Part shown: piece after piece, positions 1,574-43,298 of the stretch
How positions within the stretch are numbered: position 1 is the first letter of the stretch
Layout: every line of letters starts with the position of its first letter
Origin: an uncultured Nanoarchaeota archaeon
GTDB taxonomy: Archaea; Nanobdellota; Nanobdellia; Pacearchaeales; GW2011-AR1
Length of the DNA stretch: 64,000 nt
Reading direction: 5' to 3'
NCBI GenBank assembly: GCA_963743615.1
Contig: CAVUQF010000002.1
Location: 129,697 to 193,696, forward strand
Translations under genes and position numbers: made by a program
The notes under the pieces: model-generated
The model's database searches: none
Told to the model about the DNA's origin: nothing
What the model saw: the letters and a program-made list of their open reading frames with translations, nothing else

Positions 1574-1625
1574 TGAGTCATGCACCTAGCGCTTATTATA
1601 TAAATCATTTCTTACATATAAAAAT

Positions 1626-3736: not shown

Positions 3737-3753
3737 TGCTCCTATTCTTGAAG

Positions 3754-4512: not shown

Positions 4513-4622
4513 CGTCTTATACTATGAAGTATATATTTAAAAATATATTTACAACTCTTTATCGCTTCTATTATATTTGAACCCTTCAAATTGTTTATAA
4601 ATAATATTTTTGTATATTAACT

Positions 4623-5237: not shown

Positions 5238-5248
5238 GGAGGTTTAAA

Positions 5249-6022: not shown

Positions 6023-6058
6023 GAAGTTAGATTTTTAACTTCCTTTTTTCTTTATTTT

Positions 6059-6556: not shown

Positions 6557-7316
6557 CTCTCAGAGGGCTGTCTGAAGCCTTTATTTCAACAGTATCTCCC
6601 CTATTGAACTCAAATATAGAATCGTTTATTGCTATTATCCCTCCATGATCCCTTGTTGACTCAATTATCAATTTTTCTTCCTCATTTATATCTCCATTAA
6701 GAAGAGTGGGTTTGAAGACTCTTTTTCCGAAATAAGGTTCTCTAACAATAAATTTCAGCTTTTTATCTGAATAGTGAAATGGTTTTCCTCCTGCAGACAA
6801 AAACCAAGCTTCAGATCCTGTTCCCGTTGAGACAATTACCCCAGAGCTCCTTTGTTCTTCTTTTTTACCTTTGAAATTTATTTTATACCTTGAACTATGA
6901 AATTGTGAAAATGCCCCAATATAAACTTCATTTAGGGCTTTTTCATCCAAAAGTCTTCCATTTATAATTACATCTGCCCTTTCCCTGATTATTATCTTGA
7001 AATTCCCTCTAGCTAGCTCCTTTAGCTTTCCAATTTCCCCAATTGTTATTGATGTCAAAGCCCCCTCGCTTTTTTTGGGATTTGAATTTATTCCCAGGAT
7101 CAAAGAACTATGGACAATATGAGCCGCCCTTGTAAATGTGCCATCTCCTCCTAAAGTTATTACAAGATCTTTATCTTCAAGGATATCTCTATTCATTGAA
7201 GTATAATCAATTACGGAAAAATTAGCTTCCGGAAAATTCTTTTTTATTTCTTCTATTTTGTTAAATAACTCTTCTTCAAGATCTTCTTTATGTAGTAGAA
7301 CTATATTTTTGAACAT
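6543..7316 (-). CDS. nadK: NAD(+) kinase
   Basis: The GGDGT motif, the NEVYI motif and the 257-aa length are typical of ATP-NAD kinases. Confidence 0.8.
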   Translation of the reverse strand: MFKNIVLLHKEDLEEELFNKIEEIKKNFPEANFSVIDYTSMNRDILEDKDLVITLGGDGTFTRAAHIVHSSLILGINSNPKKSEGALTSITIGEIGKLKELARGNFKIIIRERADVIINGRLLDEKALNEVYIGAFSQFHSSRYKINFKGKKEEQRSSGVIVSTGTGSEAWFLSAGGKPFHYSDKKLKFIVREPYFGKRVFKPTLLNGDINEEEKLIIESTRDHGGIIAINDSIFEFNRGDTVEIKASDSPLRVISF

Positions 7317-7340
7317 TTTTACAGAATTAATTCTGGCTAT

Positions 7341-7883
7341 TTATCTCTTTTCTTTCCTGTATATTACAACTAGATCTTCATCAGTTCCCGGTGATTTCCT
7401 TGATTTGTCAAAAATTCTTTTTGAGATAGATATGAATTTATTTGGTTTTTCTCCAGAGTTATGAACGTAAATAGTATTTGTATCATACCCTACGACAGGA
7501 ACGAAATGACCCTGATATCCTTTCTTTTTTTTGATAACATTCCAATCCAGAAGGATAATTGGAATACAATCTTTTCTGACAAATTTCAATATTTCTTTTA
7601 GGGAAAGTTCCCTTTCGGTTATTATCACCCCCGCCTTTTTGGCATCTTCAATCAGTTGCTTCATATACTTAATCAAGTTCATATCCAAATATTGTTTGTA
7701 AAAATCCATTTTTAGATTTTCTTCATTAAATAAGACATGTTTTGAATAGAATTGTGTTTTATACCCCAATTTTGATGCCGCTTCTGCAATTTGGATAGTT
7801 GCGACCCCCTTTCCTTCCTTTTTACCCATCAATCTCCCTAGTTCTTTAAGAGTCCTATTCTCTTTAAAATAGGCAAGGACCAT
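7341..7883 (-). CDS. Papain-like (peptidase C39-like/BtrH-like) domain protein
   Basis: The His motif GHFVPVVGYD is typical of the C39-like fold. The expected catalytic Cys position is not clear. Confidence 0.35.
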   Translation of the reverse strand: MVLAYFKENRTLKELGRLMGKKEGKGVATIQIAEAASKLGYKTQFYSKHVLFNEENLKMDFYKQYLDMNLIKYMKQLIEDAKKAGVIITERELSLKEILKFVRKDCIPIILLDWNVIKKKKGYQGHFVPVVGYDTNTIYVHNSGEKPNKFISISKRIFDKSRKSPGTDEDLVVIYRKEKR

Positions 7884-7945
7884 CTTTAGAGCAGCTGGTC
7901 AGCAATCTGATGATGCTATTTGTTTATAGAAAGGAACTCTCAGCT

Positions 7946-8554
7946 TCATTTTCTTCTTTTTTCATGCCTTTTCTTATGCCTTTCAAAAGATTTATTCAAA
8001 GAATCTCCAATATTGTAGAATAAAATCCTAAACTGATTTTCAACATCATCCCATCCAATATCTTTTCCTCTATTTGCTTTATTCAACTTTTCTCTTATTT
8101 TCTCCTTTTCTTTTTCCCATTTAATATCTCCAAGTTTTTTTAATTCAAATCCTTCTTTTGCCAATTTTGCATATCCCGCGATAAGTACAATTATGAAAAC
8201 GACGGCAGAAATTAGCCCTGGATGGATTAAAACTCCTGAATTTGTATAAATTTCCATAAACTGCCATATTTTATACAAGAACGAGACGATTATTGTGCTC
8301 AGTATCGCGCTTGTTATGGGTGCTAGAAGATTGAAAGGAGATTCAAAATTCCAAAAAATTTCATTTATTACCCCAAAGAAGAAAAGTGAAAAAAATAAGG
8401 GGATATTTGCATTGAAGAAGTTTATCACATTAGAATACACAGAATTCTGAACACTCGTTGCAAGTATGCCCGCAACTAGAATTAAAGTCACAAGGATAAT
8501 GAATCCGACGCTTCTCCCAATAATTATTGACAATGCAGAATGGTGTCTCTTCAT
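7946..8554 (-). CDS. Integral membrane protein, hypothetical
   Basis: Four predicted TM helices are followed by a C-terminal K/E/R-rich tail. Confidence 0.4.
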   Translation of the reverse strand: MKRHHSALSIIIGRSVGFIILVTLILVAGILATSVQNSVYSNVINFFNANIPLFFSLFFFGVINEIFWNFESPFNLLAPITSAILSTIIVSFLYKIWQFMEIYTNSGVLIHPGLISAVVFIIVLIAGYAKLAKEGFELKKLGDIKWEKEKEKIREKLNKANRGKDIGWDDVENQFRILFYNIGDSLNKSFERHKKRHEKRRK

Positions 8555-8587
8555 TGCAGAAAATAGTTTTGGAAATTTATAAACCTT

Positions 8588-9730
8588 TTATAATTTTAAT
8601 TCCGATTCTCTTCCGGAGTCCATCTCTTTGACTTTAAACTTGCCCGATTGGACCTCTTTTTCTCCTACAAAAATAACTTTACTTATTTTGTATGAATTTG
8701 CGTATTCCAATGCCTTCGTCGGCTTGCCGTAGAATATTGAAACTTCTCTATTTTCCCTTCTTAATTTTTGTGCAAGTTTTATTGAATCTCTGTCTTCCCC
8801 AAGTGAAACAATTAGATATCTTTCTCTGTTGGGCTTGAGATTCGCAACTGCAGATAGCCTCTCAACTCCGAATGAAATTCCAGTACATTTCACACTATTA
8901 AATTCATAACTTCCCCCTGCAATTATAGTCTCTTTTATTCCTGAGGCTTTTATTTCAAATACCATCCCATTGTAATAACTTAGACCTCTTATCAAAGTTG
9001 GAGAGAATTTAACTTCCATTCCGTAAATTCTGCAATAGTCCATTAGGCTGATAATTTCTTTATATCCTTTAAATTTGTTAAAATAATCTTCATTCCGCTT
9101 TAATGCGTCAATAACTTTCTCTGCTTTTAGCTTTTTCAGATTTGCTTTTATATCCTTTTCTGGAATTTTGTCAAATTTGTCGATCTCTCTAAGAACGTCT
9201 TCTCTGCTGTTTTTTATCTTAAGATCATCAAGTATTTCATTGAGTAGCCTTCTGTTGTTAATAATAACAATAGGTTTTACATTTACCTCTCTCAAAATAT
9301 CATCCGCAAGAGAGAGAACCTCTGCTTCATCTCGAGTTGGAATATCAGAAACTCCAACTATATCTACATCACATTGAGTAAATTGCCTTAATCTATTCAA
9401 AGAAACGGGTTCATCACGAAAAACGGGTCCTACTTCATACCTCTTGTAAGGAAGTTTTTTATTATTCATGAGCCTCTTAAGCTGAAAGGTAAACTCATAC
9501 CTTAGTGCAAGGTTTCTCTTTCCCTTATCTTTTAACCTGAATATATCTGAAACAGCTTCATCCTTTTCATTCTCTCCTCTTACAAAATCTTCATGTTCAA
9601 TCACAGGAGTTTCTGCAGGTTGGAAACCGTATCTTTCAAAGTTTCTTAGAATTATTTTTTTTATTTCTGCAATCTTCTCAGCCTCTTCACCTGTAAAATC
9701 TTTAAATCCCTTTACTAATTCACTAGTCAT
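8588..9730 (-). CDS. hisS: Histidyl-tRNA synthetase
   Basis: The class II motifs are present: KGFKDF..EE at the N-terminus, RYEFTFQLKR, and GPVFRDE. A C-terminal anticodon-binding region is present. Confidence 0.8.
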   Translation of the reverse strand: MTSELVKGFKDFTGEEAEKIAEIKKIILRNFERYGFQPAETPVIEHEDFVRGENEKDEAVSDIFRLKDKGKRNLALRYEFTFQLKRLMNNKKLPYKRYEVGPVFRDEPVSLNRLRQFTQCDVDIVGVSDIPTRDEAEVLSLADDILREVNVKPIVIINNRRLLNEILDDLKIKNSREDVLREIDKFDKIPEKDIKANLKKLKAEKVIDALKRNEDYFNKFKGYKEIISLMDYCRIYGMEVKFSPTLIRGLSYYNGMVFEIKASGIKETIIAGGSYEFNSVKCTGISFGVERLSAVANLKPNRERYLIVSLGEDRDSIKLAQKLRRENREVSIFYGKPTKALEYANSYKISKVIFVGEKEVQSGKFKVKEMDSGRESELKL

Positions 9731-33248: not shown

Positions 33249-34628
33249 ATGAAAAAGGTGATTTTACTGTTTTGTTTGGCTGTTTTCATTCTTCCAGCGA
33301 TATATGCATTGGACCTTAATGTGACCACAAACAGTACAAATGTTGTTCTTATAAATAATGTTAATGAACCCGCAGTCTTTAATTTACAGGTTACAAACAA
33401 TGGAATGCCGGATAATCTTCAATTTTATAATCTCCTTGGATTTAACATGTTCCCGGAAGGGACTGTGCCAATTCAGTTGGGTCAAACTATAAATGTTCCC
33501 CTTATGATTTATCCAAGACCTGATTTAAACTACAACGGATTCTATATTTTCAATTATATTATCCAGGGGCAGGCCGGTGACCAGCTTCCAGAGTCAGTTA
33601 ATTTCAAGATAATAAATCTGCAGGATGCATTTAACATTGGTGCCTCCGAAATTGATCCACAATCTGATTCGATAACGATTTTTCTAAAGAACAATGTAAA
33701 TTTTAATTTTGCAAATATCAATGCTACTTTCAATTCCCCATTCTTCACAGATTCTGAAAAGTTTTCACTTGCTCCTTACGAGGAAAAGGATTTTCAAATT
33801 ACACTTAATAAGGATCAGTTCAAAAGCTTGCTTGCAGGATTTTACACACTATCCTCAGAAATAACAACTGGGGGACAAACAGTAACAGTTCAGGGAAACA
33901 TAAACTTTTCCGAGAAAAATATACTTAATGTAAGCCAGAATACAAAGGGATTTTTGATACTTACAATGTTGATGCAGAAGACGAATAATGGAAATGTGGT
34001 CGTAAATTCTCAAACTGTAATAAAAAAGAATATTATCTCTAGACTTTTTACGACATTTAGCCCTGAACCAGACATGGTAAACCGACAGGGATTGCTCGTT
34101 TATTATACTTGGGAAAACCAGATAGAACCTGGAGACACTTTAACTATAACTACAACAACGAATTGGCTTCTTCCTTTGTTCATAGTCTTATTTGTCATAG
34201 CAATAATTATCCTTGTAAAACAATACTCTAAGACCGCACTAAGCCTTGAGAAGAGAGTGTCATATGTGAGAGCAAAAGGTGGAGAATTTGCCTTAAGAGT
34301 TAATGTCACGGTAAAGGCAAGGAAGTTTGTTGAAAAAGTTACGGTTACAGAGAGACTTCCTCTTCTTGTAAAACTTTATGAAAAATTCGGAGCAGAGAAG
34401 CCAGTAAGAATAGATGAAAAGAGCAGAAGAATTGAATGGCACTTTGATAAACTCCTTCCAGGAGAAATGAGAACTTTAAGTTATATAATTTATTCGAAAG
34501 TTGGAGTATTGGGGAGATTTGCCCTTCCAGTAGCAAGAGCTGTTTACCAGAGAGAGGGAAAAGTTTACGAAGCCGGATCAAATCAAGCTTTCCTTGTAAC
34601 AGAGCAAAGTGTTAGGGAAGAAAAGTAG
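33249..34628 (+). CDS. Membrane-anchored secreted protein, hypothetical
   Basis: A signal peptide (MKKVILLFCLAVFILPAIYA) and a large ectodomain with sequons are followed by a TM (LLPLFIVLFVIAIIILV) and a roughly 140-aa cytoplasmic tail. Confidence 0.5.
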   Translation: MKKVILLFCLAVFILPAIYALDLNVTTNSTNVVLINNVNEPAVFNLQVTNNGMPDNLQFYNLLGFNMFPEGTVPIQLGQTINVPLMIYPRPDLNYNGFYIFNYIIQGQAGDQLPESVNFKIINLQDAFNIGASEIDPQSDSITIFLKNNVNFNFANINATFNSPFFTDSEKFSLAPYEEKDFQITLNKDQFKSLLAGFYTLSSEITTGGQTVTVQGNINFSEKNILNVSQNTKGFLILTMLMQKTNNGNVVVNSQTVIKKNIISRLFTTFSPEPDMVNRQGLLVYYTWENQIEPGDTLTITTTTNWLLPLFIVLFVIAIIILVKQYSKTALSLEKRVSYVRAKGGEFALRVNVTVKARKFVEKVTVTERLPLLVKLYEKFGAEKPVRIDEKSRRIEWHFDKLLPGEMRTLSYIIYSKVGVLGRFALPVARAVYQREGKVYEAGSNQAFLVTEQSVREEK

Positions 34629-34680
34629 ATACTAAGCTTTTATAAGAATCTTTAAAATATGTTATAGTTACTTCTGATAT

Positions 34681-34705
34681 CCCTGCATAGCTCAGGGAAT
34701 GATCT
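34681..34705 (+). repeat. Degenerate copy of tRNA-Tyr 5' end (old att remnant)
   Basis: CCCTGCATAGCTCAGGGAA matches the CCCCGCATAGCTCAG of tRNA-Tyr at 40783 with one mismatch. It cannot be folded into a full tRNA. Confidence 0.5.
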
Positions 34706-35018
34706 CTAAAATAGCATATATAGGATAATGGTCCGACGCCTTCTTAGAGTTAAATTTCATATAATTTTAATCTCTCAATTATATATAAAATCTTAGCTGA
34801 TTATAATATTTATCAAGATGGTTCCAAAAACTATCAAAATCCAAACTTTTAAATATAAATTTGTTAACTAGATATAGTTTTAAGGCATTAAAAATACCCA
34901 AAACTTAATAACTGACAACCCCATAAGTTGCCAAATCAAATCCCCGCATAGCTCAAGGGAACACATATTACAAACCTTATGCGGTTAGTTTTATAAAGAC
35001 TAAATCCTCTTTTATCCT

Positions 35019-36179
35019 ATGCTTAAAGAATATCCTCAATTCAAGAAAGGAGAAGTAGAAGAAGTTTATAGCAGACTCTCAAAATCTGAAAAGGAATTAT
35101 TGAAAGATTATCTGACTTATAGAAAAGCCAGAGGGTTAAAATCGGATGACAAGGTTAATGATGTAAGAAGATATATACTTCACTTAAGGTATATTTTTGA
35201 TAAGGATTTCAAAAAAGTTGATTTGAAAGACTTGAGAGAGATCCTCTCAATTATTAATAGCTCCAAATTATCCGGTAATGTCAAGAACCATATTAAAACA
35301 GACTTGCAGAATTTCTTAAAATATCTGTTTCCTGATTGGAGTATTAAGTTTTCTAATTTTGATGATGTAAGATTGGGAACTTCCCGAAATGAAGAAAAGA
35401 TAAATTCTTCTACAATTTTCAGCAAAGAAGATATAGAAAATTTAATGAAGCACGAAACTTCTCTTTTTTGGAAAGCCTTTTTAATGCTACAATATGAGGG
35501 AGGACTAAGAACTATTGAAGCTCGAACTATTGAATGGAACAAGATCAAATTAGATGTTGATAAGGGAATTTCTGAAATAAATGTCTTTGCTTCCAAAACA
35601 GAACACGCTCGAACTATATTTGTTAAAGAAGCTACTTATTATTTGCAGAGGTTAAAAGAAGAGCAAGAGAATACTAAGGATAAAGGAATTTATGTTTTTC
35701 ATTCTAAGTCCGATAAAAATAAGCCGATAGATAAAGGCTCGGTTTCTATATGGTTTAGAAATCTAACAATGAAAGCATTAGGGCGTGAAGGCTGGGCTTA
35801 CTTGCTTAGACATTCAAGAGCTACGGAACTCTATAAATTGGCTGATGAGAACAAGATATCCAAAGAAACTGCAATAAAATTTATGGGACACTCTAAGGAT
35901 ATGAGCGCAACTTACACGCATTTGAATAAAAAAGATGTTGAGGATATGCTGAAAAACCAAGTCTATCATATCGAGGAATTAAGTCCTAAAGAAGAAAACA
36001 AGTTAAAGAAAATAGAGAAAGAACTTTCTGAACTTAAAGAAAAGCAAAAATTAGTAGATAAATTCTTAGAAGAAATGAAGCCTTTTCTCGAAGCTAAAAG
36101 AAAAGTTATTAATGGAAAAGAATATTTAGTAATGCCTCCACAAAAGAGGGCTAATAAAGAGGGGGAGAAGAATGGCTGA
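35019..36179 (+). CDS. int: Tyrosine recombinase/integrase (intact, not partitioned)
   Basis: The catalytic C-terminal region contains LLRHSRAT and GHS..ATYTHL (R-H-R-Y residues). An N-terminal SAM-like region is present. Confidence 0.8.
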   Translation: MLKEYPQFKKGEVEEVYSRLSKSEKELLKDYLTYRKARGLKSDDKVNDVRRYILHLRYIFDKDFKKVDLKDLREILSIINSSKLSGNVKNHIKTDLQNFLKYLFPDWSIKFSNFDDVRLGTSRNEEKINSSTIFSKEDIENLMKHETSLFWKAFLMLQYEGGLRTIEARTIEWNKIKLDVDKGISEINVFASKTEHARTIFVKEATYYLQRLKEEQENTKDKGIYVFHSKSDKNKPIDKGSVSIWFRNLTMKALGREGWAYLLRHSRATELYKLADENKISKETAIKFMGHSKDMSATYTHLNKKDVEDMLKNQVYHIEELSPKEENKLKKIEKELSELKEKQKLVDKFLEEMKPFLEAKRKVINGKEYLVMPPQKRANKEGEKNG

Positions 36180-36381
36180 AAGAAATGATAATACGCTCAT
36201 TGGAGGAATAATAGCCTTGTTTATAGGAATAATCTTAGCCTTGGCTTTTTTTCCTATAATAACAAATTCCAATGGTCAAGAAACAGGAACATTTTCAGTA
36301 ACTAACCAGACGTTCAACATAACATCTGCTTACAATGCTACGGGAGTAATTCCCAATAGCACGATACTAACGCGCTCTTGA
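36172..36381 (+). CDS. Small membrane/pilin-like glycoprotein (possibly the 5' part of a frameshifted gene)
   Basis: A hydrophobic N-terminal stretch (LIGGIIALFIGIILALAFFPII) is followed by an N-x-T-rich region. The next ORF (36378..36593, TTG start) continues in the +1 frame with similar composition. Confidence 0.3.
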   Translation: MAERNDNTLIGGIIALFIGIILALAFFPIITNSNGQETGTFSVTNQTFNITSAYNATGVIPNSTILTRS

Positions 36382-37290
36382 CCTTGAATGGAGCAAACGT
36401 TCAGGGAGGTTTCTCCAATATTTTTGTAGGAAACCAGACTAGAAATATAACCAGTGGAGATTATACTGTAACCGAACCAACAACAATAGGGCAGAACGGA
36501 TATATCCAAATCCTGAATACTTCAATAACTAACGGACTTGGAAACGGCTCTTTGATATCATTATGGTATCAGTATAATATGGTTGGTAATTGACTCTCGT
36601 TCTGAATTATCTCAAAAAGTGAGAGTTAGCAAAAAGAGGCTTTTAAGTCTTGTAGATTTTGAATTTTGAACAGCATGCAGGGGATTATGCCAAATCAAAC
36701 GGGCGTATATTTAGTTTCAAATTTGTTCGTTAATATTGCCAGATAATTCGGGGGGGGGTTTGTTTTTCCATCCTATGAACTCCTTTGGTTTTTTTCTCTT
36801 CTTGCCTTCTTTCGTTCCCTCGAAGATATCATACATTCGATTTATCTTCTCGCTTGATGAAAGCTCTTCTTTTGGTTCTTTTTCATCTTTGTTATGATCT
36901 ATTATTTCCTTCTCTCAGAAGCTCAGCGCAGACTGCTCGCTGTTTCCACCTCCTTTTTTATGGAACCACCCCTTGTTCTCTTTTTGATCTATCTTTCCAG
37001 GCAGCCTTGCCTGAAGGCTCTTTCTTTCGGATATTGCAAGCATAAGCAGGAATCTTCCTTAGCTCCATTACTTCTTTTAGGACGCCTTGATTATTGTTCC
37101 AGGCAGAGGCGAAGCTCTGCTCAGTTACATTTTCTTCCATACTATGAGTGTTAAATCAATATTAGCAACCATCAATAACAGCATTTTACTGCAACCTCCT
37201 CCTTTCACCAATCTTTCGCCATAAAATTCCATATCCTCTTCCCGAATTTTGTCAAGTAAACCTGCTAAAAAAAAATTATTTTGCTCCATC

Positions 37291-37581
37291 CTATTGAATT
37301 TTCCTCAGGTTTTTGATTGTTTGATCCAGTTCGCCTGCTGCAATGCGGAGATGTGAAAGCCAGGAGATATCCTGGCGCAAATCCGGGGTAGTTATCTTCC
37401 GAATTGTTTCCCGGGCGGATTTTATTATGACTAAATTTTCTTCAGCACAAGAAATATAATTTTCTAGTTCCTCACCTTCTACTTCTTCTGGCTCGGCCAA
37501 TAAATCAGAGTTTATAGCTTCTGGGATTTGAGGTTCTTCAGACATCTCTAAATCCCCCACTTTTGATACAGGCTGCAACAT
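37291..37581 (-). CDS. Hypothetical acidic protein (element cargo)
   Basis: A 96-aa ORF. Confidence 0.35.
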   Translation of the reverse strand: MLQPVSKVGDLEMSEEPQIPEAINSDLLAEPEEVEGEELENYISCAEENLVIIKSARETIRKITTPDLRQDISWLSHLRIAAGELDQTIKNLRKIQ

Positions 37582-37710
37582 AACGGATTATTCTTTTGGA
37601 GATTGAGATAAATTCAGAGCTAAATCCGGCATTCAATAATTCCTGATAACCACAGCCATTTTCAATAGCCCTAATGCAATTAAGGACCCTTTCGGGAGAG
37701 CTTAAATCAT

Positions 37711-38379
37711 TCATTTTAGAGCCTCCTCCATTTCTGCAATAGAATTATAGCCCAAAAGTTTAGCCTGTTCTAACTTTAAGTCATCTAAAGAGTTAGACGG
37801 ATTAGACACTTCTGTTTTTATTATATCTAATGACTCCTTATATATATGACCATTACTCATATTATTTTTAGATGTGTCTAAAGTGTCTAATTTCTTCTTC
37901 CATTCTGACTTTAAGATTACATTATCCCAAAATCGAATTTTTTCATTTGCTTTAGGAACTAAATAAGTAATTTTCGTGTTTAATCTCCGACCTAATTGCT
38001 CTTTGCTTAAAAGCGGCTTTTTATTTTCGTTAGCCCATAAAGAATAAACTAAATACATTTCTTCTTTAGTTATCTTTTTGGTTTTCATCATTTCCAAACA
38101 TTCTGCCCCAAACTGAATTAAAGGATCTCCCGACATTTCCATAATTGTTTTTACTTCTTCGGGAGTTTTTTTATAAGAAAATTCCCCTTCTTCTAAAAGT
38201 CGATACAATCCCTCCAAAGCCCAATTAAGAATTCCTGAAAGTTCTTTTTTTATTTTGTCATTCAAAAATAAATCTTTTTTTTCAGGCAGATTGTCATATC
38301 TCAAAACTATCCAGCGGGAATAATAAGCCATATCATCATTATCTTTAACAGGGGGAATTTTGTTTGTGGCAAAAGTCAA
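37711..38379 (-). CDS. D5/P4-family primase-helicase, C-terminal part (continuation in another frame)
   Basis: The ORF begins with a TTG. The motif RWIVLRYDN is typical of the region downstream of the SF3/D5 ATPase core. Its frame is open upstream and overlaps the previous ORF. Confidence 0.55.
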   Translation of the reverse strand: MTFATNKIPPVKDNDDMAYYSRWIVLRYDNLPEKKDLFLNDKIKKELSGILNWALEGLYRLLEEGEFSYKKTPEEVKTIMEMSGDPLIQFGAECLEMMKTKKITKEEMYLVYSLWANENKKPLLSKEQLGRRLNTKITYLVPKANEKIRFWDNVILKSEWKKKLDTLDTSKNNMSNGHIYKESLDIIKTEVSNPSNSLDDLKLEQAKLLGYNSIAEMEEALK

Positions 38380-39311
38380 TTTAGCATAATTTTCAAATTG
38401 GGAATAATCCCGAACTTTTCCTCGCCGCTAATGAAACCGCCGCCTGTTGCAACCTTAAAATTTCCGCCATCATTCAAATCCTTGCTGCTTAAATCATCAT
38501 AAATGTTGGAATACTTATCCTTTAAGGATAATCTATTAAAATCCGTTCCATTGCTGATTTTTTGGAGGCTTAATCCAGTTTTATTAAATTCTCCGATGAA
38601 AGAAGTGAGAGCATTAAGGGTTATTGTTTTTCCCGTATCTTTTTCCCCAAAAATTATGAGGGCTTTTTTAATCAGATATTTCCTATAAAGTTGAAACCCA
38701 AACCATTCCTGAAGAACAGGAACATCCTCAGGGTATAATGATTCTTCAATGAATTTCAACCAATTCGGACAAACAGCTGACGAATCATACTCGATGGGAA
38801 TTATATTCTTAAAATGATTTTTAGGAGAGTGAGGATCTAAACTTTTAGTTGCGAAATTAAAAATCCCATTAACAAGAGGAAGGCAGTTAATATTTGTTTT
38901 ATCAAATTCTTCCTGCGTTATATGATTTCTTCGCTTAATTTTTGCGATTATTTCACTAACAGGATTAATTTTTGCGAATTTTCCCAGAATTTCCTCACAC
39001 TTTTTTTTAACAAAGCTCTCTGCCATGTAATCCCAAGTTTTTCCATTAAAGATCATCAAAGTTTCTTTTGTCTTTCCAATAATCGTTAGAAGAGAGTGAT
39101 TTTCACAGAGATAATTAGCCAGAGAATCAATATCTATGAAATATTGCTGTAATTTTTTACTCCAAACAACAAAATTAGATTCTTCTTTTTTGTCCAGAGC
39201 AATATATTCCTCTCCATTCTCATTTTTCTCTATGGTTGCAGCTCTGCCTCTACTTTCCTGAAGTTTTCGCAAGGCTTCCAATTCTTCATGAGTAAGCTTT
39301 TCTTCAGGCAT
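38376..39311 (-). CDS. D5/P4-family primase-helicase, N-terminal part including Walker A
   Basis: A P-loop IIFGEKDTGKTITLNALTSF is present in a P4-primase C-terminal-like context. The ORF ends 4 nt into the next ORF. Confidence 0.6.
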   Translation of the reverse strand: MPEEKLTHEELEALRKLQESRGRAATIEKNENGEEYIALDKKEESNFVVWSKKLQQYFIDIDSLANYLCENHSLLTIIGKTKETLMIFNGKTWDYMAESFVKKKCEEILGKFAKINPVSEIIAKIKRRNHITQEEFDKTNINCLPLVNGIFNFATKSLDPHSPKNHFKNIIPIEYDSSAVCPNWLKFIEESLYPEDVPVLQEWFGFQLYRKYLIKKALIIFGEKDTGKTITLNALTSFIGEFNKTGLSLQKISNGTDFNRLSLKDKYSNIYDDLSSKDLNDGGNFKVATGGGFISGEEKFGIIPNLKIMLN

Positions 39312-39573
39312 TCTTAGCGCCCCCTAAAATTAGTTTTTCTTTAGTTCCTATGCTTAAATTTTGAGAAATTTTGAAAGATTTTTCATTATTTGAAGAATAA
39401 TCCCTAAACCTAAACTTTCTGATTTTTCCATGCTTCTTAGCGCATGGTTGACAGCAGAAGCAATCTTCCCCTGTTTTATTATCTAACAAGCAGCCGAAAG
39501 TTAAGTTATAACAGAACCAACAGCGGCCCGGAATCTCATCATCTACAATCTTGAAATAAGAGAAGTGCTTCAT
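39304..39573 (-). CDS. Small Cys-rich (zinc-ribbon-like) protein
   Basis: The motif CWFCYN...CFCCQPCAKKHGK gives about 8 Cys in 89 aa. Confidence 0.35.
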   Translation of the reverse strand: MKHFSYFKIVDDEIPGRCWFCYNLTFGCLLDNKTGEDCFCCQPCAKKHGKIRKFRFRDYSSNNEKSFKISQNLSIGTKEKLILGGAKNA

Positions 39574-40085
39574 CTTGAAACCTCCCTAATAGCTAAAATA
39601 TAACTTTCTTTTAGAGTTATTAAATACCCCAACTTATCTTTTATAACAAGTTCTTCTTTAGATGTTTCAGGAAGAACAAAGCCGAGATAATAATTTCCGT
39701 TTGGGATCTCAACCTTAACCCATTTACCGACATACAAACTAAAATCCATGAAAAAAGTTAATCCTAAGGATTACCCTCCTCTTTTAGAATCTTCTTAGCC
39801 CCTTTTAGAGAATTTAATCTGATAAGAACAGCTCTCTTTAATCCTGATATTTTAGAAGCTTGGTCTAATATAGAAATTTCTTCAGGAGTAAAATTTGTTA
39901 GAATATGAATTGTGCGAAAAACCATACTGAGAGGTCAGCTAATAAAAATTAGACTTGACTTCTCAACTCCTCTAAAATAGAAAATCTTGCGGTTTTCATA
40001 ATATCCATTATAATGTATTCTTTAAATATTTTTCTATCTTTTGAAAGAAGAAATAGTTTTTTAAAATTAGTTTCTATAAAAGTAA

Positions 40086-40580
40086 ATGGGAGCAAGAAGA
40101 TTTGACTATTATGTTTTTATAGATTATTCAGAGAATTTATTAGGATATCTCATAATAAACCAAGATAAGATAGATGAATTCCTTCCTAATATATCCAAGT
40201 TTGCTCATTATAAAGAATTAAAACACAAACCAGAGTATATCCATTCTATAAAAAAGATAATTGAGAAAAATAAAATTCAATCTTATCTTTTAAAGACTAA
40301 AATTAGAAAGAGTGCAGACACGCCCGAAATATACTCGGATATCCTGGATTTTTTGAAAAGAAATGATAATTGTCTAATTTTTATTTCAATAGATAATAAA
40401 CAATATTCTAACTTTGAAAAATTGGTTAGAATCATTGATGGAAAAAATATTAAGGTAGTTAAAGAAAGTGAATTAAAGAAAGATACATTTGAATTTAGGA
40501 TAAGCCTTGTACTAGACACTTTGCTAAATATTAATCGATTGAAAAGTATAAACTTAAGTAAAAAATCTAAAATAAGATAG
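40086..40580 (+). CDS. Hypothetical protein (element cargo)
   Basis: A 164-aa ORF. Confidence 0.4.
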   Translation: MGARRFDYYVFIDYSENLLGYLIINQDKIDEFLPNISKFAHYKELKHKPEYIHSIKKIIEKNKIQSYLLKTKIRKSADTPEIYSDILDFLKRNDNCLIFISIDNKQYSNFEKLVRIIDGKNIKVVKESELKKDTFEFRISLVLDTLLNINRLKSINLSKKSKIR

Positions 40581-40782
40581 GGTAAGGAGATCCGTCAATC
40601 CTAATAACCACGTCAGGCGTGGGGTTCGTCAGGTTCTGTTTCCCTACGAATTATATAGATAAATGAGGATTATAAACTTTACGAAATTAAAATAGCTTAT
40701 CCAAAAACATTTAAAAGTTAGAGTTATATTCTCTTTAAATCAACCTTTAGAGTTCAAACAATCTAAAGTTTGTAAATCATAT

Positions 40783-40940
40783 CCCCGCATAGCTCAGTGG
40801 TTAGAGCGCTTGGCTGTAGTTGCGAGACACTTTTAGTGTTTAACTAGGATGGATATTCCACAAGGAAATTAGATGAAGTCTGAAAAGCCAGAAGTTCAAC
40901 AGGACCCGAGAGATCCCCAGTTCGATTCTGGGTGCGGGGA
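40783..40940 (+). tRNA. tRNA-Tyr (anticodon GUA) with an approximately 85-nt intron at the canonical 37/38 position
   Basis: Exon 1 is 40783-40819. Its acceptor is CCCCGCA with a C1-G72 pair, the D-arm is GCUC/GAGC, and the anticodon arm is CUUGG-CUGUAG. The intron is about 40820-40904. Exon 2 is 40905-40940 with CCGAG, T-arm CCCAG-UUCGAUU-CUGGG, acceptor UGCGGGG and discriminator A. The intron boundaries are approximate. Confidence 0.65.
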
Positions 40941-40972
40941 TCCATTATATTAGTCTCTTATTAGTAGTAACG

Positions 40973-40990
40973 TTTCATAAGATTTATAAA
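40973..40990 (+). promoter_or_regulatory. Promoter (BRE-like TTCATAAGA plus TATA box TTTATAAA) for 41012
   Basis: The TATA box starts exactly 29 nt upstream of the ATG. The same 17-mer recurs upstream of the next two genes. Confidence 0.6.
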
Positions 40991-41011
40991 GCCTAAAATT
41001 CTAGAAGTATT

Positions 41012-41338
41012 ATGAAAGTGTTATCTAAGCAGAAAGCTAATGAAAAAGATAAAGAATTGAGAAGTATAGAGGAGTTAGTTAAAAATACGGGATTTGCTGC
41101 ACTCATTATAAGTATGGGTTGTTATGTTCTTAATGGCTCTCCCCTTATCATGGCTGCAGGAATGGCCAGTATTCCAATTACAAATTATATAGCTAGTAGG
41201 ATTAGTTATACTGCAGATAAGTATCATGATCAATCTCTATCAAACAGAGAAAGGTGCAGGAAGCACTTGGTTGGATATTATGAACCTTCTATTATTGAAG
41301 ATACGTTAAACGAGATGAAATCAGATAACATTTTATAA
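41012..41338 (+). CDS. Small membrane protein, hypothetical
   Basis: A 108-aa ORF with two TM helices. Confidence 0.4.
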   Translation: MKVLSKQKANEKDKELRSIEELVKNTGFAALIISMGCYVLNGSPLIMAAGMASIPITNYIASRISYTADKYHDQSLSNRERCRKHLVGYYEPSIIEDTLNEMKSDNIL

Positions 41339-41608
41339 ATTATCTTAGATTTAGCTCTCAAAAGAACACTTTTTATAGGAGATTAGTCTATAATGAAGTA
41401 CATAAATCCTTGTCTGAAAGATAAGCCTGACTACCAGCCAGTTTTCCCATTACAGACCCTCCATTTTTTAGAGAGTTAACACTAGAAAGGGGATTTTCTC
41501 TAGAAATTCTTAATACTTCTTCCATTAAAGAGTCATAGTCCATGGAGATCATAAGCAGTAAATTAATTTTTAAATGTTTGTATCTGTAACTACTATTAAG
41601 TAAAGATA

Positions 41609-41626
41609 GTTCATAAGATTTATAAA
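41609..41626 (+). promoter_or_regulatory. Promoter (same BRE/TATA 17-mer) for 41648
   Basis: GTTCATAAGATTTATAAA, with the TATA box starting 29 nt upstream of the ATG. Confidence 0.6.
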
Positions 41627-41647
41627 TAATAGATTTTTCTGAAAATC

Positions 41648-42556
41648 ATGAAAATAATGAGCATGTCTGATATTCATGGAGACTTTGAATCGCTGGACAA
41701 AGCACTTGAAATTGTAAATAAAAGCCATGCAGACGTCCTTACAATAAGCGGAGACTTAAATGGGGAAAACCTCGATGAGGAAGATAAAAAACAATTTTAT
41801 GAATCATATAGAGAGTTGCTGAGAGTAAATTCCCAAATTAACCAGTTATCTAACGGGCAGAAAAGGCTCAATTGTTATGATACCGCAAACTTAGTCATGT
41901 CAAGGCAACTTAGGCTGGATAATAACGTTGCAGATAATGAGCTAATGAAAAAAGCAGCAAATTACCTAAGCATTGGAGAAAAGGCAAAAGGAAGAATCAT
42001 AGAAAATTATAATAAATTCAGAGACAGATTTAGTAAATTGGAGCAGAAAGTTTTTGTTGTTCCTGGAGATTGGGATACTAAATGTATGGATGATGTACTA
42101 GCCCCAAACAATCTTCATCTTAAATATCCTGAAGAAGTTGGTGGGTTCAAGTTTATAGGGTATGGGGGAGCATCAGAAGTGCCTTTTGACATCCCTCAAG
42201 AGTCTGTAGTTGATTATAATATTAAGGAGGAATTTGATTATCTTTGTCAGCATGAAGATGCAAGTATTGTCTTAACTCATGTTCCTCCAACAGACTTTGA
42301 AGGTAAGGGATCAGAGGGGAATCCATTGCTCCTTGCTTATCTTTATAGGATGGAACCGGATTTAATTCTATGCGGGCATAATCACGTCCCATTCGCACTA
42401 AAAGAGCCAAAAACAGGGACTATCGTTGTAAACCCAGGACTTCTTGGAAAGTACAAAAATGAACCTCACGGAACATTTTTGGAAATTGATGTTGATGAAT
42501 ATAAAGTATCTCCTGTAAGGTTATACTCCATTAATGGGCAAACTAAAGATTTATAG
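41648..42556 (+). CDS. Calcineurin-like metallophosphoesterase
   Basis: The metallophosphoesterase motifs DIHGD, GDLNGEN and CGHNHVPF (GNH-like) are present. Confidence 0.7.
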   Translation: MKIMSMSDIHGDFESLDKALEIVNKSHADVLTISGDLNGENLDEEDKKQFYESYRELLRVNSQINQLSNGQKRLNCYDTANLVMSRQLRLDNNVADNELMKKAANYLSIGEKAKGRIIENYNKFRDRFSKLEQKVFVVPGDWDTKCMDDVLAPNNLHLKYPEEVGGFKFIGYGGASEVPFDIPQESVVDYNIKEEFDYLCQHEDASIVLTHVPPTDFEGKGSEGNPLLLAYLYRMEPDLILCGHNHVPFALKEPKTGTIVVNPGLLGKYKNEPHGTFLEIDVDEYKVSPVRLYSINGQTKDL

Positions 42557-42579
42557 TTATTACTAATAAGTAATTACAT

Positions 42580-42596
42580 TTCACAAGATTTATAAA
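42580..42596 (+). promoter_or_regulatory. Promoter (same BRE/TATA 17-mer, one mismatch) for 42618
   Basis: TTCACAAGATTTATAAA, with the TATA box starting 29 nt upstream of the ATG. Confidence 0.6.
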
Positions 42597-42617
42597 TAGT
42601 AAAATCCTTGGATTATT

Positions 42618-43298
42618 ATGAAAAACTTGATACAAAAGATTGGTAGAATGGCTGTTCCATTGGCCCTAGTTGGGGCTGTTGGAAGTGCTCTTTATGCCCA
42701 GCCAAATATCGAAAGGCAAAGAGGGTATGTTGACGTAAAAAATCCTGCATTCGTGAAAGATGGAATGTTATATACAGTTGGATCTAGCGGGGTTTATTCT
42801 AGTGAACGTGGTGCAAGGGATAATGCTTATATGAATGCAATCCTTAAGGATAATGAAATATCCGGAGAAAGTGCAAGAGGAGTTCTGCCTATAGCTAATG
42901 AAATTGACACTACAGAAGTAAATGGGCAGCAGGATTATGTGGCAGAGGTTATGACACAGGTTCCAATTTCAAGCTTTGATACTAAGGGTCAGGCTAATAT
43001 TAAACAAAAAGACTTGGATATAAGCTCAAAATATGTAAGAGTTGGAGACTATCTTGTTGATCCAAAAGTTATGAGTGTTTTAAAGGATTATTTTGGTGTA
43101 TATGCTACTCATGAATCTAGAACTACAACTAATACCGTAAATGGTAAAACTCAGACAAATACTGAAGTTACAGATAGCCAAAAGTCGGCTATAGACGGGG
43201 GAAGATTAGAAGGAATGTTAAAAATGTTTGATGTATCTAATGATAAGGTTATTACCCCTGAAGGAATGAGTTATCTAGCAAAAAATAAGGGCAACTAA
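42618..43298 (+). CDS. Secreted protein with bacterial-type signal peptide (LPP20-like?)
   Basis: The signal peptide is MAVPLALVGAVGSALYAQP. Assignment to the LPP20 family is tentative. Confidence 0.45.
   Translation: MKNLIQKIGRMAVPLALVGAVGSALYAQPNIERQRGYVDVKNPAFVKDGMLYTVGSSGVYSSERGARDNAYMNAILKDNEISGESARGVLPIANEIDTTEVNGQQDYVAEVMTQVPISSFDTKGQANIKQKDLDISSKYVRVGDYLVDPKVMSVLKDYFGVYATHESRTTTNTVNGKTQTNTEVTDSQKSAIDGGRLEGMLKMFDVSNDKVITPEGMSYLAKNKGN

What the first reader, a model, noticed from the sequence alone, without database searches (positions are those of the whole stretch)
34940..40796. Integrated mobile element at the 5' end of an intron-containing tRNA-Tyr
A 16-nt exact direct repeat (ATCCCCGCATAGCTCA) occurs at 34940 and at the start of tRNA-Tyr at 40781. 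An intact tyrosine integrase sits just inside the left repeat, and a D5/P4-like primase-helicase lies in the cargo. This is the pNOB8-type arrangement in which the integrase stays intact, but the element targets the 5' rather than the 3' part of the tRNA. A second, more degenerate copy of the tRNA 5' end lies 260 nt further left at 34681, suggesting an earlier integration/excision or a decayed tandem element. The element also carries pilin-like small genes, so it may be a small conjugative or viral-type element of an uncultured archaeal lineage.
Basis: partly seen in the sequence, partly recalled or inferred. Interest (0 to 1): 0.7.

Follow-up and report, generated by a model that had tools for sequence, protein, structure and literature searches.

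The report
Integrative plasmid-like element at tRNA-Tyr
A 5.8-kb mobile DNA element has inserted, by its own integrase, into the start of the tyrosine tRNA gene of an uncultured DPANN archaeon. Other strains show the same site empty or holding different elements, so this is a real but fairly ordinary integrative element of a rarer, already documented "5'-end" type.

Summary
An exact 16-nt repeat (34940-34955 and 40781-40796) brackets a 5,841-bp element, and the right copy covers nt -2 to +14 of an intron-containing tRNA-Tyr(GUA) at 40783-40940.

Contigs from four other samples, with identical flanks, show the precise empty site: left flank, one core, tRNA. Other strains carry the same element with a nested 7.8-kb transposon, mosaics of it, or a different 8-kb element at the 3' end of the same tRNA.

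The integrase (35019-36179) is an intact tyrosine recombinase with attP outside its gene. The P4/D5-family helicase is split by a 1-nt deletion in this copy and has no detectable primase domain. "Pilin-like" and "conjugative" are unsupported.

The third, degenerate copy (34679) is the original 5' end of the tRNA, still attached to the ancestral promoter. This is shown by a sister species. The tRNA therefore already sits behind element-derived DNA even in "empty" strains.

The integrase belongs to a clade of over 200 members in Woese-/Pace-/Nanoarchaeota. Its members carry a tRNA-5'-like segment at a fixed position upstream of int, flanked by inverted arms, and five are circular 6-10.5-kb contigs.

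5'-end tRNA targeting is rare but documented, so this is a new member of a known kind.

The parts
34640..34694 (+). Displaced original 5' end of tRNA-Tyr (34679-34694, 1 mismatch) together with the ancestral promoter flank (ATAAGAATCTTTAAAATAT...).
   Evidence: The copy was found. The flank aligns with the 5' flank of the intact tRNA-Tyr of sister species L111. It is present in all strains, including empty-site ones.
34695..34939 (+). 245-nt remnant of an older insertion. It is the present 5' flank (presumed promoter region) of tRNA-Tyr in empty-site strains.
   Evidence: It is 100% identical in 13 contigs of this species and absent from sister species L111. Its last 15 nt (AAGTTGCCAAATCAA) resemble the element's right end (D11). 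The interior has no significant similarity to the present element.
34940..34955 (+). attL core (tRNA nt -2..+14).
   Evidence: Exact repeat. It is the junction defined by the empty sites.
34956..40780 (.). Body of the integrated element (5,825 nt; 5,841 nt with one core).
   Evidence: It is absent from empty-site contigs L003, L006, L015 and L016. Contig L110 (5,840 bp) equals window 34956-40784. Tetranucleotide distance to the host is 0.200, against 0.133 +/- 0.016 (maximum 0.171) for 48 host windows.
34968..34975 (+). Right inverted arm of attP (TTACAAAC).
   Evidence: It pairs with GTTTGTAA at 40768-40775 in the reconstructed attP. The geometry (7 nt, tRNA nt 1-15, 11 nt) matches the family rule found.
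34989..34997 (+). TATA-like box (TTTTATAAA) about 26 nt before the integrase ATG. Presumed promoter of a leaderless int mRNA.
   Evidence: Read from the sequence. An A/T-rich TTTATAA-type box sits at the same place in nearly all homologous loci. Its function is inferred.
35019..36179 (+). Tyrosine integrase, 386 aa, intact.
   Evidence: PF00589 at 1e-14 and PHROG_1 at 6e-27. R164, E167, K193, Y261, R264, H291 and Y299 are invariant in 27 homologues. The profile hits P. abyssi XerA 4A8E at 3e-8.
36172..36593 (+). 140-aa ORF with an N-terminal hydrophobic segment and many N-x-S/T sites. Here it is split into 69 + 71 aa by a 1-nt deletion at 36364.
   Evidence: No family match.
36730..37289 (-). 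Three small ORFs (60, 60 and 54 aa in the intact allele). The first is disrupted here by 1-nt deletions at 36767 and 36909.
37291..37581 (-). 96-aa acidic ORF of unknown function.
37711..39311 (-). P4/D5-family SF3 helicase (D5_N + DUF5906 P-loop + D5 C-terminal). It is 533 aa in the intact allele and split here into 311 + 222 aa by a 1-nt deletion at 38408.
   Evidence: Pfam and PHROG matches on contiguous profile positions. The intact L001 protein matches TIGR01613 at 149 bits, above the 108.7 cut-off. L001, L005 and L027 carry the undeleted version.
39304..39925 (-). Three small ORFs (89 aa Cys-rich, 59 aa, 53 aa) upstream of the helicase in the same operon.
   Evidence: No family match.
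40043..40051 (+). GAAAGAAGA, the unoccupied target site of a 7.8-kb cargo transposon present in the allele on ERZ25039471:contig_49550.
   Evidence: 9-bp duplication and 15-nt terminal inverted repeats GGCTTTGCACAATAA.
40086..40580 (+). 164-aa ORF of unknown function (123 aa in the L009 allele).
40768..40775 (+). Left inverted arm of attP (GTTTGTAA).
40781..40796 (+). attR core, which is the rebuilt 5' end of the tRNA.
40783..40940 (+). tRNA-Tyr(GUA). 5' exon 40783-40819, 85-nt intron 40820-40904, 3' exon 40905-40940.
   Evidence: Rfam 50.2 bits. Cloverleaf after splicing. Sequence identical to the gene at the empty site.
40926..40941 (+). TTCTGGGTGCGGGGAT, the 3'-end att core used by a second, different element in other strains. 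It is unoccupied in the window.
   Evidence: The 16-nt exact repeat lies at L002 11837-11852 and 19884-19899 and brackets an 8,047-bp element with a 374-aa integrase.

Best explanation
Window 34956-40796 is a small (5,841-bp) integrative, plasmid-like 'cryptic' element of a DPANN archaeon (Nanoarchaeia, Pace-/Woesearchaeota-like).

**Proposed cycle**
- In its free form it is a circle whose attP lies about 60 nt upstream of the integrase gene.
- attP holds a copy of tRNA-Tyr nt -2..+14 (up to -9..+14) between two inverted arms, GTTTGTAA and TTACAAAC. Their dyad falls on tRNA nt ~10.
- The element's tyrosine integrase recombines this site with the identical sequence at the 5' end of the chromosomal tRNA-Tyr gene.
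- Integration pushes the resident promoter and first 14 nt away to the far (left) end, forming attL next to int. The element's own copy of those 14 nt, plus its right-end sequence, become the new 5' end and 5' flank of the tRNA.
- The tRNA sequence is unchanged, and the integrase gene stays whole (pNOB8-type logic).
- Replication of the free form would depend on the P4/D5-family SF3 helicase operon.

**State of this copy**
The helicase and two small genes carry 1-nt deletions, so this copy can probably still excise but not replicate. The alternative is that the deletions are assembly errors.

**History of the site**
The same thing happened before. The copy at 34679 is the original tRNA 5' end with the ancestral promoter, and 34695-34939 is what is left of the earlier element.

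**Shown:** boundaries, empty site, polymorphism, integrase family, relic origin.
**Inferred:** circular intermediate of this particular element, crossover position, promoter function, replication role.
For: - **Repeat and tRNA.** The exact repeat is non-random. The tRNA is real and its 5' end is the right repeat.
- **Precise empty site.** Found in four samples with 100% identical flanks.
- **Independent assemblies of the same element.** It appears at the same junctions in L001/L009/L026, L005 and L011. L110 is a 5,840-bp contig ending exactly at the element's ends.
- **Integrase.** Intact, with attP outside the ORF.
- **Helicase family.**
- **Composition.** The element is a tetranucleotide outlier.
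- **Divergence pattern.** All 13 differences between the window and L001 over 10 kb lie inside the element, and none lie in 4,955 nt of flank.
- **Family context.** There are 217 homologues at 50-68% identity. 51 of 63 non-redundant loci carry a tRNA-5'-type motif at -90..-55 from int, against about 6% per strand expected. An inverted repeat of at least 8 nt flanks the core in 51% of loci against 3% in controls, with constant geometry.
- **Free forms.** Five circular contigs of 6-10.5 kb carry int plus a single core. They share a replication-protein homologue with the elements at this locus.
- **Other complete 5'-end integrations.** L104 (tRNA-His, 17-nt repeat, 4.2 kb) and L021 (tRNA-Thr, 17-nt repeat, 8.3 kb, plus tandem relics).
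- **Relic origin.** Shown by the sister species.
Against: - No attP (circular-junction) sequence of this particular element was found. An exact attP pattern gave 0 hits in IMG/VR, and read-level data could not be searched.
- L110 stops at the core on both sides, so it is equally compatible with an assembly-graph bubble.
- The helicase is frameshifted here, so autonomy of this copy is doubtful.
- The inverted arms are 33 nt apart. That is wider than classical core-type sites, so their role is uncertain.
- Promoter activity of the element's right end is only inferred from weak TATA-like motifs.
- In seven long related loci, no partner core or tRNA lies within 10 kb. Those family members could not be shown to be bounded elements.
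Confidence: 0.88

Rival explanations
1. The element is a provirus (integrated viral genome) rather than a plasmid-like element. The 140-aa glycoprotein-like ORF and the small ORFs would be virion components.
For: Most cargo ORFs have no recognisable function. The 140-aa ORF has an N-terminal hydrophobic segment and many N-x-S/T sites. Small archaeal viruses can be this size (general knowledge).
Against: No capsid, packaging or spike family was detected in Pfam, PHROGs or NCBIfam. The integrase family has no relative in IMG/VR, and the attP pattern is absent there too. Related circular contigs encode only integrase, a replication protein and ORFans.
Confidence: 0.12
2. The copy in this window is a dead, fixed remnant. 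Integration was real, but the element is now immobile and decaying.
For: Four 1-nt deletions unique to the window copy disrupt the helicase, the 140-aa ORF and a 60-aa ORF. L001, L005 and L027 have the intact versions. All differences from L001 lie inside the element.
Against: The integrase ORF and both att cores are intact and identical. Divergence from the intact allele is only 13 positions in 5.8 kb. The population is polymorphic for empty and occupied sites, so insertion is recent. The deletions could be consensus errors in a region of strain heterogeneity.
Confidence: 0.35
3. The structure is an assembly artefact or a non-integrase rearrangement, such as a duplicated tRNA fragment plus an unrelated island. 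It would not be a site-specific insertion.
For: The window and the comparison contigs are from metagenomic or MAG-type assemblies. Some contigs break at the tRNA (L007, L008, L013, L014, L017).
Against: The same junctions were recovered in independent assemblies from different samples. The empty site differs by exactly the element plus one core. The same architecture recurs in dozens of related loci and in circular contigs. Contig breaks at the tRNA are what strain polymorphism at this site predicts.
Confidence: 0.02

Closest known systems
pNOB8-type (type II) archaeal integrative elements (She et al. classification, as summarised in PMC8371274 and PMC6563490)
   Same: A tyrosine integrase whose gene is not interrupted by integration. 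attP lies outside the ORF, a tRNA gene is the target, and short direct repeats mark the ends.
   Different: The target is the 5' end rather than the 3' part of the tRNA. The att core is only 16-23 nt. Sequence relatedness to the pNOB8 integrase itself was not tested. No NCBIfam model, including archaeal XerA, matches the 386-aa protein at E<0.01.
[quoted passage not shown] Caldiarchaeum subterraneum (all listed in PMC6563490, section 'Integration into tRNA genes')
   Same: The element carries the 5' portion of the tRNA and displaces the resident 5' end and promoter. The arrangement is rare compared with 3' targeting.
   Different: Here it is a property of a whole integrase clade in DPANN archaea, with a conserved attP layout. 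Those earlier cases involve other integrase lineages and hosts. I could not read the 2002 paper, so comparison with it rests on its title, the citing text and my memory.
Cryptic integrated elements (CIE) of Thaumarchaeota (PMC6563490)
   Same: They are small elements (from 2.6 kb) made of an integrase, a replication protein (often primpol/SF3 helicase) and ORFans. They have short att sites (median 17 bp), some carry R-M systems, and piggy-backed or nested elements and tandem arrays occur.
   Different: The host phylum differs. All but one thaumarchaeal tRNA-integrated element use the 3' end.
Phage P4 alpha / poxvirus D5-type SF3 helicase replicons (TIGR01613, PF08706, PF03288)
   Same: The intact allele has D5_N, a P-loop SF3 helicase and a D5 C-terminal domain, and it passes the TIGR01613 cut-off.
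   Different: No primase (AEP or toprim) domain was detected in the 533-aa protein. The gene is frameshifted in the window.
Archaeal XerA (P. abyssi, PDB 4A8E)
   Same: It is the only solved structure matched by the family profile, over the catalytic domain (3e-8).
   Different: The match is weak. XerA is a chromosome-dimer resolvase, not an MGE integrase. The 374-aa integrase of the 3'-end element is much closer to XerA (NF040815 at 1e-24, below cut-off).

Membership tests
Tyrosine recombinase / phage integrase superfamily | Significant match to the catalytic-domain profile | tested here: met
   PF00589 at 55.1 bits against a 27.1 cut-off, and PHROG_1 at 6e-27. Family profile against 4A8E XerA at 3e-8.
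Tyrosine recombinase / phage integrase superfamily | Catalytic residues R...K...HxxR...H/W...Y present | tested here: met
   R164, K193, R264, H291 and Y299 are invariant in 27 homologues, with spacing like XerD (from memory). The first His of HxxR is Tyr261 throughout the family. The assignment is by alignment position only; no structure was used.
pNOB8-type (non-suicidal) archaeal integrative element | attP lies outside the integrase ORF, so int stays intact after integration | tested here: met
   The core ends 63 nt upstream of the ATG. The 386-aa ORF is full length against its homologues.
pNOB8-type (non-suicidal) archaeal integrative element | Integrase homologous to the pNOB8 integrase lineage | not tested
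   No pNOB8 sequence was available in the tools used.
Site-specific integrative element (general) | Existence of an unoccupied attB differing by exactly the element plus one repeat | tested here: met
   L003/L010, L006, L015 and L016.
Site-specific integrative element (general) | Excised circular form carrying attP | tested here: inconclusive
   No attP hit in IMG/VR. L110 is an element-only contig ending at the cores. Five related elements are circular contigs with a single core. Read-level data are not searchable.
5'-distal tRNA-targeting elements | The duplicated segment is the 5' end of the tRNA, and the resident 5' end plus promoter are displaced to the far end of the element | tested here: met
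   Core = tRNA nt -2..+14. Comparison with the empty site. The displaced ancestral promoter is seen at the relic.
5'-distal tRNA-targeting elements | The element supplies a functional promoter for the tRNA | not testable with these tools
   Only TATA-like motifs are seen at about -49..-42 and -38..-30. This needs transcription-start mapping.
P4-family primase C-terminal / D5 SF3 helicase (TIGR01613) | Score above the curated cut-off over the whole domain | tested here: met
   Intact allele L001 14465-16066: 149.3 bits against 108.7. The window fragments match contiguous profile positions.
P4-family primase C-terminal / D5 SF3 helicase (TIGR01613) | Uninterrupted ORF in this window | tested here: not met
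   A 1-nt deletion at 38408 splits it into 311 + 222 aa.
Primase-helicase fusion (AEP or toprim + SF3) | Recognisable primase domain | tested here: not met
   No primase domain in Pfam or NCBIfam. The N-terminal ~100 aa are unassigned.
Integrative conjugative element | Type IV secretion / coupling ATPase genes | tested here: not met
   The only hit is a sub-threshold TrwB_AAD_bind match (E 0.009, 15 bits against 20.5) on the 164-aa ORF. The element is 5.8 kb.
Archaeal type IV pilin | Pilin family match or a class III signal peptide | tested here: not met
   No Pfam, PHROG or NCBIfam hit for the 140-aa ORF or its fragments. The N-terminus MAERNDNTLIGG... lacks the usual K/R-G cleavage motif (read by eye).

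The most novel reading that the evidence does not exclude
The integrase represents an undescribed clade with more than 200 members so far, in Woese-/Pace-/Nanoarchaeota. The clade would be specialised as a whole on the 5' ends of tRNA genes.

- Its attP always places tRNA nt 1-15 between inverted arms, with the dyad on tRNA nt ~10, about 60-80 nt upstream of int.
- The central segment occurs in either orientation, which flips the direction of integration.
- Different subclades use different tRNAs (Tyr, His, Thr, Ser and others).

Every insertion replaces the promoter of a (probably single-copy) tRNA gene. These elements would therefore repeatedly rewrite tRNA promoters in reduced DPANN genomes. 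Here the 'native' promoter of tRNA-Tyr would itself be a fossil of such an element. The same gene is also attacked at its 3' end by a second integrase lineage that exchanges cargo modules with the first.
Probability: 0.5. Interest if true: 0.6.

Novelty: new member of a known kind. Interest (0 to 1): 0.4.

Why it matters
- **A well-bounded DPANN example.** Mobile elements of DPANN archaea are barely characterised. My literature searches found no description of integrative elements in Woesearchaeota. This locus has natural empty, 5'-occupied and 3'-occupied alleles of one tRNA gene in one population, and free circular relatives.
- **A possible tool.** The element offers a compact integrase/attP pair with a 16-23-nt target, which could be tested as a genetic tool for organisms that have none.
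- **A consequence of 5' targeting.** The promoter of an essential tRNA can be swapped for mobile-element DNA and stay that way after the element decays.

The mechanism itself, a tyrosine integrase with a tRNA att site, is textbook. 5' targeting is already on record.

Tried and rejected
- **Exact look-up of the window integrase.** It returned nothing. The identical protein P0001 is nevertheless in the collection, on a 202,516-bp NCBI/ENA contig.
- **Free form in IMG/VR.** The attP-specific pattern gave 0 hits, and the integrase family has no relative there. No evidence for a virus or a free form came from that source.
- **ARAGORN.** It misses the window tRNA-Tyr and calls few tRNAs in the related loci; in L033 its call (tRNA-Ile) looks wrong, since the flank sequence reads as tRNA-Tyr. 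Rfam confirms the tRNAs it was run on. I used Rfam and a 5'-end motif instead.
- **Partner cores in long related loci.** L035, L037, L039, L040, L046, L047 and L074 have none within +/-10 kb, even allowing 2 mismatches, and no tRNA downstream. Those elements are larger than 10 kb (L108 carries a DGR-like module) or not bounded. Family-wide 5' integration is therefore proven only for the window, L104 and L021. L033, L059 and L072 (Rfam- or ARAGORN-confirmed tRNAs) and L022 (tRNA read by eye from a truncated flank) show int next to the 5' end of a tRNA.
- **Relic interior against the present element.** There is no similarity above shuffles and none to any other fetched locus. The relic's origin rests on the sister-species comparison instead.
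- **Acceptor-stem symmetry idea.** The cores share ATCCCCGCA at the 5' end and TGCGGGGAT at the 3' end. I considered that 5' targeting arose from 3' targeting through this symmetry. The two integrases are only 27% identical and the orientations do not fit a simple flip, so this remains speculation.
- **Cargo ORFs.** Pfam, PHROGs and NCBIfam gave nothing for the cargo ORFs of the 5' element. For the 3' element's cargo, Pfam and PHROGs gave nothing, and NCBIfam (run only on its 549-aa protein) also gave nothing.
- **Zhao & Williams 2002.** The paper could not be read.

Full report
**1. Observation**

- The 16-mer ATCCCCGCATAGCTCA is present exactly at 34940-34955 and 40781-40796. A third copy with one mismatch lies at 34679-34694.
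- With up to three mismatches the window has 3 matches against 0.27 expected, and none of 100 shuffles reaches 3.
- ARAGORN does not call a tRNA at the right copy. The Rfam tRNA model hits 40783-40940 at 50.2 bits, against a gathering score of 29.
- Removing an 85-nt intron at the canonical 37/38 position (40820-40904) leaves a 73-nt sequence. It fits the cloverleaf and has anticodon GUA.

**2. The decisive test: empty sites and alleles**

An exact-protein look-up with the left-flank gene (33249-34628) and the right-flank gene (41012-41338) returned contigs of the same species from about a dozen samples. Their flanks are 100% identical to the window.

| Allele | Contigs | Evidence |
|---|---|---|
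| Empty site | L003/L010 (ERZ25039473), L006 (SRR28003155), L015 (ERZ19043689), L016 (ERR10755936) | Read ...CCAAATCAA\|ATCCCCGCATAGCTCA\|GTGGTTAGAGC..., i.e. window 34939, one core, 40797 |
| Same element at the same junctions | L001/L009/L026 (ERZ25039471) | 99.87% identical |
| Same element, right part diverges after 39483 | L005 | Error-prone assembly |
| Mosaic | L011 | The element's right end joined to a different replication module |
| Element-only contig | L110, 5,840 bp | Corresponds to window 34956-40784 |

- The element is thus 5,841 bp including one core.
- Its tetranucleotide composition is an outlier: L1 distance 0.200 against 0.133 +/- 0.016 for 48 host windows, maximum 0.171.
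- GC differs little: 33.1% in the element against 35.0% in the rest.

**3. A second element at the other end of the same tRNA**

- In L002/L012 and L004 the 5' site is empty. An 8,047-bp element sits at the 3' end of the tRNA.
- It is bracketed by a 16-nt exact repeat, TTCTGGGTGCGGGGAT, which is tRNA nt 59-73 plus one base.
- Its 374-aa integrase is only 27% identical to the window's integrase. The exception is a shared C-terminal tail whose DNA is 95% identical.
- Other patches are 92-97% identical to the window element: 36691-36766, 37113-37322 and 37434-37916.
- The two element types therefore exchange modules. Integrase and att modules assort independently of replication modules; L011 is an example.
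- Sample ERZ25039486 holds both a 3'-occupied and a 5'-occupied haplotype (L004 and L011).

**4. Gene content**

- **Integrase (35019-36179).**
  - It matches PF00589 (1e-14) and PHROG_1 (6e-27).
  - R164, E167, K193, Y261, R264, H291 and Y299 are invariant among 27 homologues.
  - The family profile's only PDB match is P. abyssi XerA 4A8E, at 3e-8.
  - No NCBIfam model matches at E<0.01.
  - The att core ends 63 nt before the ATG, so the gene is not interrupted by integration.
- **Replication gene.**
  - It is a P4/D5-family SF3 helicase. The intact allele (L001, 533 aa) scores 149 bits on TIGR01613, above the 108.7 cut-off.
  - No primase domain is detectable.
- **Damage in the window copy.**
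  - A 1-nt deletion at 38408 splits the helicase into 311 + 222 aa.
  - Further 1-nt deletions at 36364, 36767 and 36909 split the 140-aa ORF and a 60-aa ORF.
  - L001 and L005 both carry the undeleted bases, and L027 has an uninterrupted helicase N-terminus.
  - All 13 differences between the window and L001 over 10 kb fall inside the element, and none fall in 4,955 nt of flank.
  - I cannot tell whether the deletions are real decay or consensus errors in a heterogeneous region.
- **'Pilin-like genes'.** These are the two halves of the 140-aa ORF. Neither it nor the other small ORFs matches any Pfam, PHROG or NCBIfam family. Nothing indicates conjugation.

**5. The degenerate third copy**

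- All strains, including empty-site ones, carry the 34679 copy and the 245 nt that follow it. These 245 nt are 100% conserved across strains.
- In a sister species (L111, GCA_049288015.1, thermosome 95% identical) the orthologous tRNA-Tyr lies downstream of the orthologous 459-aa gene. Its exons are identical to the window's.
- Its 5' flank (CATAAGAATCTTTAAAAATATACTATTGCTATTCCAAAT|ATCCCCGC) aligns with the flank of the 34679 copy (TATAAGAATCTTTAAAATATGTTATAGTTACTTCTGAT|ATCCCTGC). It does not align with the flank of the present tRNA.
- So the 34679 copy is the original 5' end with the ancestral promoter, displaced by an earlier integration. 34695-34939 is the residue of that earlier element.
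- That residue is now the 5' flank of the tRNA in 'empty' strains. Its last 15 nt resemble the present element's right end, but the interior has no detectable similarity.

**6. Host**

- The nearest named thermosome homologues are from 'Candidatus Nanoarchaeia archaeon' (95%), 'Nanoarchaeota archaeon' (87%) and 'Candidatus Pacearchaeota archaeon' (76-78%).
- Integrase homologues in species-representative genomes are mostly titled Candidatus Woesearchaeota or Nanoarchaeota. Three are titled 'uncultured bacterium', 'uncultured archaeon' and Candidatus Saccharibacteria, probably mis-binned.
- The host is a DPANN archaeon.

**7. The integrase family**

- There are 217 homologues with E<=1e-5, at 50-68% identity among the best 120. 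80 metagenomic loci and 8 genomic loci were fetched.
- **Fixed-position core.**
  - In 51 of 63 non-redundant loci a tRNA-5'-end motif lies 55-90 nt upstream of the integrase start. The motif is a 7-nt acceptor strand, U8, R9, D-stem and A14.
  - It is on the int strand in 43 loci and on the opposite strand in 8. The chance expectation is about 6% per strand.
  - Several of the 12 'misses' show such a segment by eye.
- **Core identity.** Cores differ between subgroups and track integrase similarity. Examples are Tyr-like CCCCGCATAGCTCA and CCCGCCATAGCTCA, His GGCGGTTGTAGTATAAC, Thr GCCTCTGTAGCTCAG, and others.
- **Inverted arms.**
  - An exact inverted repeat of at least 8 nt flanks the core in 51% of 49 loci, against 3.3% of control positions.
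  - In the loci with these close-flanking arms the right gap equals the left gap plus 4 nt. This places the dyad on tRNA nt ~10, and it flips when the core is inverted.
  - The window's reconstructed attP obeys this rule: GTTTGTAA, 7 nt, tRNA nt 1-15, 11 nt, TTACAAAC.
- **Other complete 5'-end integrations.**
  - L104: tRNA-His, 17-nt repeat at 9876 and 14055, 4.2 kb.
  - L021: tRNA-Thr, 17-nt repeat at 9941 and 18275, with two further relic copies.
  - In L033, L059 and L072 the integrase is next to the 5' end of an intact tRNA and divergent from it. L022 shows the same by eye on a flank truncated by the contig end, where neither ARAGORN nor Rfam calls a tRNA.
- **Free forms.** Five contigs have 123-127-nt terminal overlaps, the signature of circular assemblies. 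Each has a single core: L045 (6.0 kb), L049 (10.6 kb), L058 (8.2 kb), L086 (7.8 kb) and L087 (7.1 kb). L045 and L049 encode a homologue (33-39% identity) of the 549-aa protein of the 3' element L002.
- **Limit.** Seven long loci show no partner core or tRNA within 10 kb. One of them (L039/L108) is syntenic with the window and carries RVT_1, bAvd and Laminin_G_3 genes downstream of int. Some relatives are therefore large, or not demonstrably bounded.

**8. Mechanism (inferred from the above)**

- A circular form carries attP just upstream of int.
- The integrase recombines attP with the identical 16-23 nt at the tRNA's 5' end. The crossover is probably around tRNA nt 7-13, at the dyad.
- The resident promoter and first 14 nt are left at attL next to int.
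- The element's copy and its right-end sequence rebuild the gene, which stays identical in sequence.
- TATA-like motifs occur in the element's right end at about -49..-42 and -38..-30 from the tRNA start. This is comparable to other tRNA genes in the window, but promoter function is not shown.

**9. Comparison with what is known**

- Krupovic et al. [quoted passage not shown] They say 5'-distal recombination is 'considerably less frequent', citing Zhao & Williams 2002, TKV4/MVV, pTN3 and their own CalSub-E1.
- They describe short att sites (median 17 bp) and small 'cryptic integrated elements' with primpol/S3H replication proteins, R-M cargo and nested elements.
- The present element fits that description in a different phylum.
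- Full-text searches for DPANN or Woesearchaeota together with integrase and tRNA found no description of this family.

**10. Verdict**

It is a new member, and the first member I could find, of an undescribed DPANN integrase clade of a known but uncommon kind. Interest is moderate. The population-level polymorphism, the two-ended use of one tRNA gene, the fossil promoter replacement and the conserved attP geometry are the parts worth following up.

Noticed in passing
window 40043-40051; L009 1245-9032 (= L026 about 1300-9100, reversed): In the allele on ERZ25039471:contig_49550 a 7.8-kb block is inserted into the element. It has a 9-bp target duplication (GAAAGAAGA) and 15-nt terminal inverted repeats (GGCTTTGCACAATAA). 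It carries a DDE_Tnp_1 transposase, two DNA methyltransferases plus a PDDEXK nuclease, MJECL32/33 homologues and a 459-aa ORF. It is a cargo-carrying transposon nested in an integrative element.
   Followed up: partly
L002 11837-19899 (also L012, L004); window 40926-41941 region unoccupied (core 40926-40941): A different 8,047-bp element uses the 3' end of the same tRNA-Tyr in other strains, with the 16-nt repeat TTCTGGGTGCGGGGAT. It has a 374-aa XerA-like integrase, a 549-aa MTBMA_p00010-like protein and an HTH_3 protein. It shares 92-97% identical DNA patches and both proteins' C-terminal tails with the window element.
   Followed up: partly
L021 13661-13838 (-), L069 13500-13630 (-); L108 12609-21200: Rfam RT-16 RNA hits (87 and 74 bits) lie about 3.5 kb downstream of family integrases. 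L108 has RVT_1, bAvd and Laminin_G_3 genes (DGR-like) next to the integrase, at a locus syntenic with the window. Relatives of this element may carry diversity-generating retroelements.
   Followed up: no
window 40950-41018, 41586-41654, 42556-42624: Three paralogous ~70-nt upstream regions (...TTCAyAAGATTTATAAA...ATGAAA) precede the consecutive genes at 41012, 41648 and 42618. They are 61-75% identical and look like a repeated promoter/5' module (families D1/D2).
   Followed up: no
L059 9873-9955 (-) and 14718-14820 (+): Two tRNA-Ser(GCT) genes in inverted orientation flank a 4.7-kb segment that starts with a family integrase. One is intron-less and the other has a 20-nt intron. This arrangement is not explained by simple 5'-end integration.
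   Followed up: no
L040/L042/L047, about 70 nt upstream of the core; L021 20143 and 20710: Degenerate extra copies of the tRNA-5' core lie next to the functional core in other species (for example ATCCCCCCATAGCTCGA in L040). This suggests repeated integration and decay cycles at such sites, as at window 34679.
   Followed up: partly
window 40820-40904 versus L111 (sister species) tRNA-Tyr intron: The exons of tRNA-Tyr are identical between the two species. The intron differs in length (85 nt against about 65 nt) and sequence, apart from a shared GGATATTC...GATGAAG core.
   Followed up: no
window 35019-36179: The exact-sequence contig look-up reported the window integrase as 'not on record'. 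The identical protein P0001 is nevertheless listed from NCBI/ENA on a 202,516-bp contig. This is an index gap in the tool, not a biological signal.
   Followed up: yes
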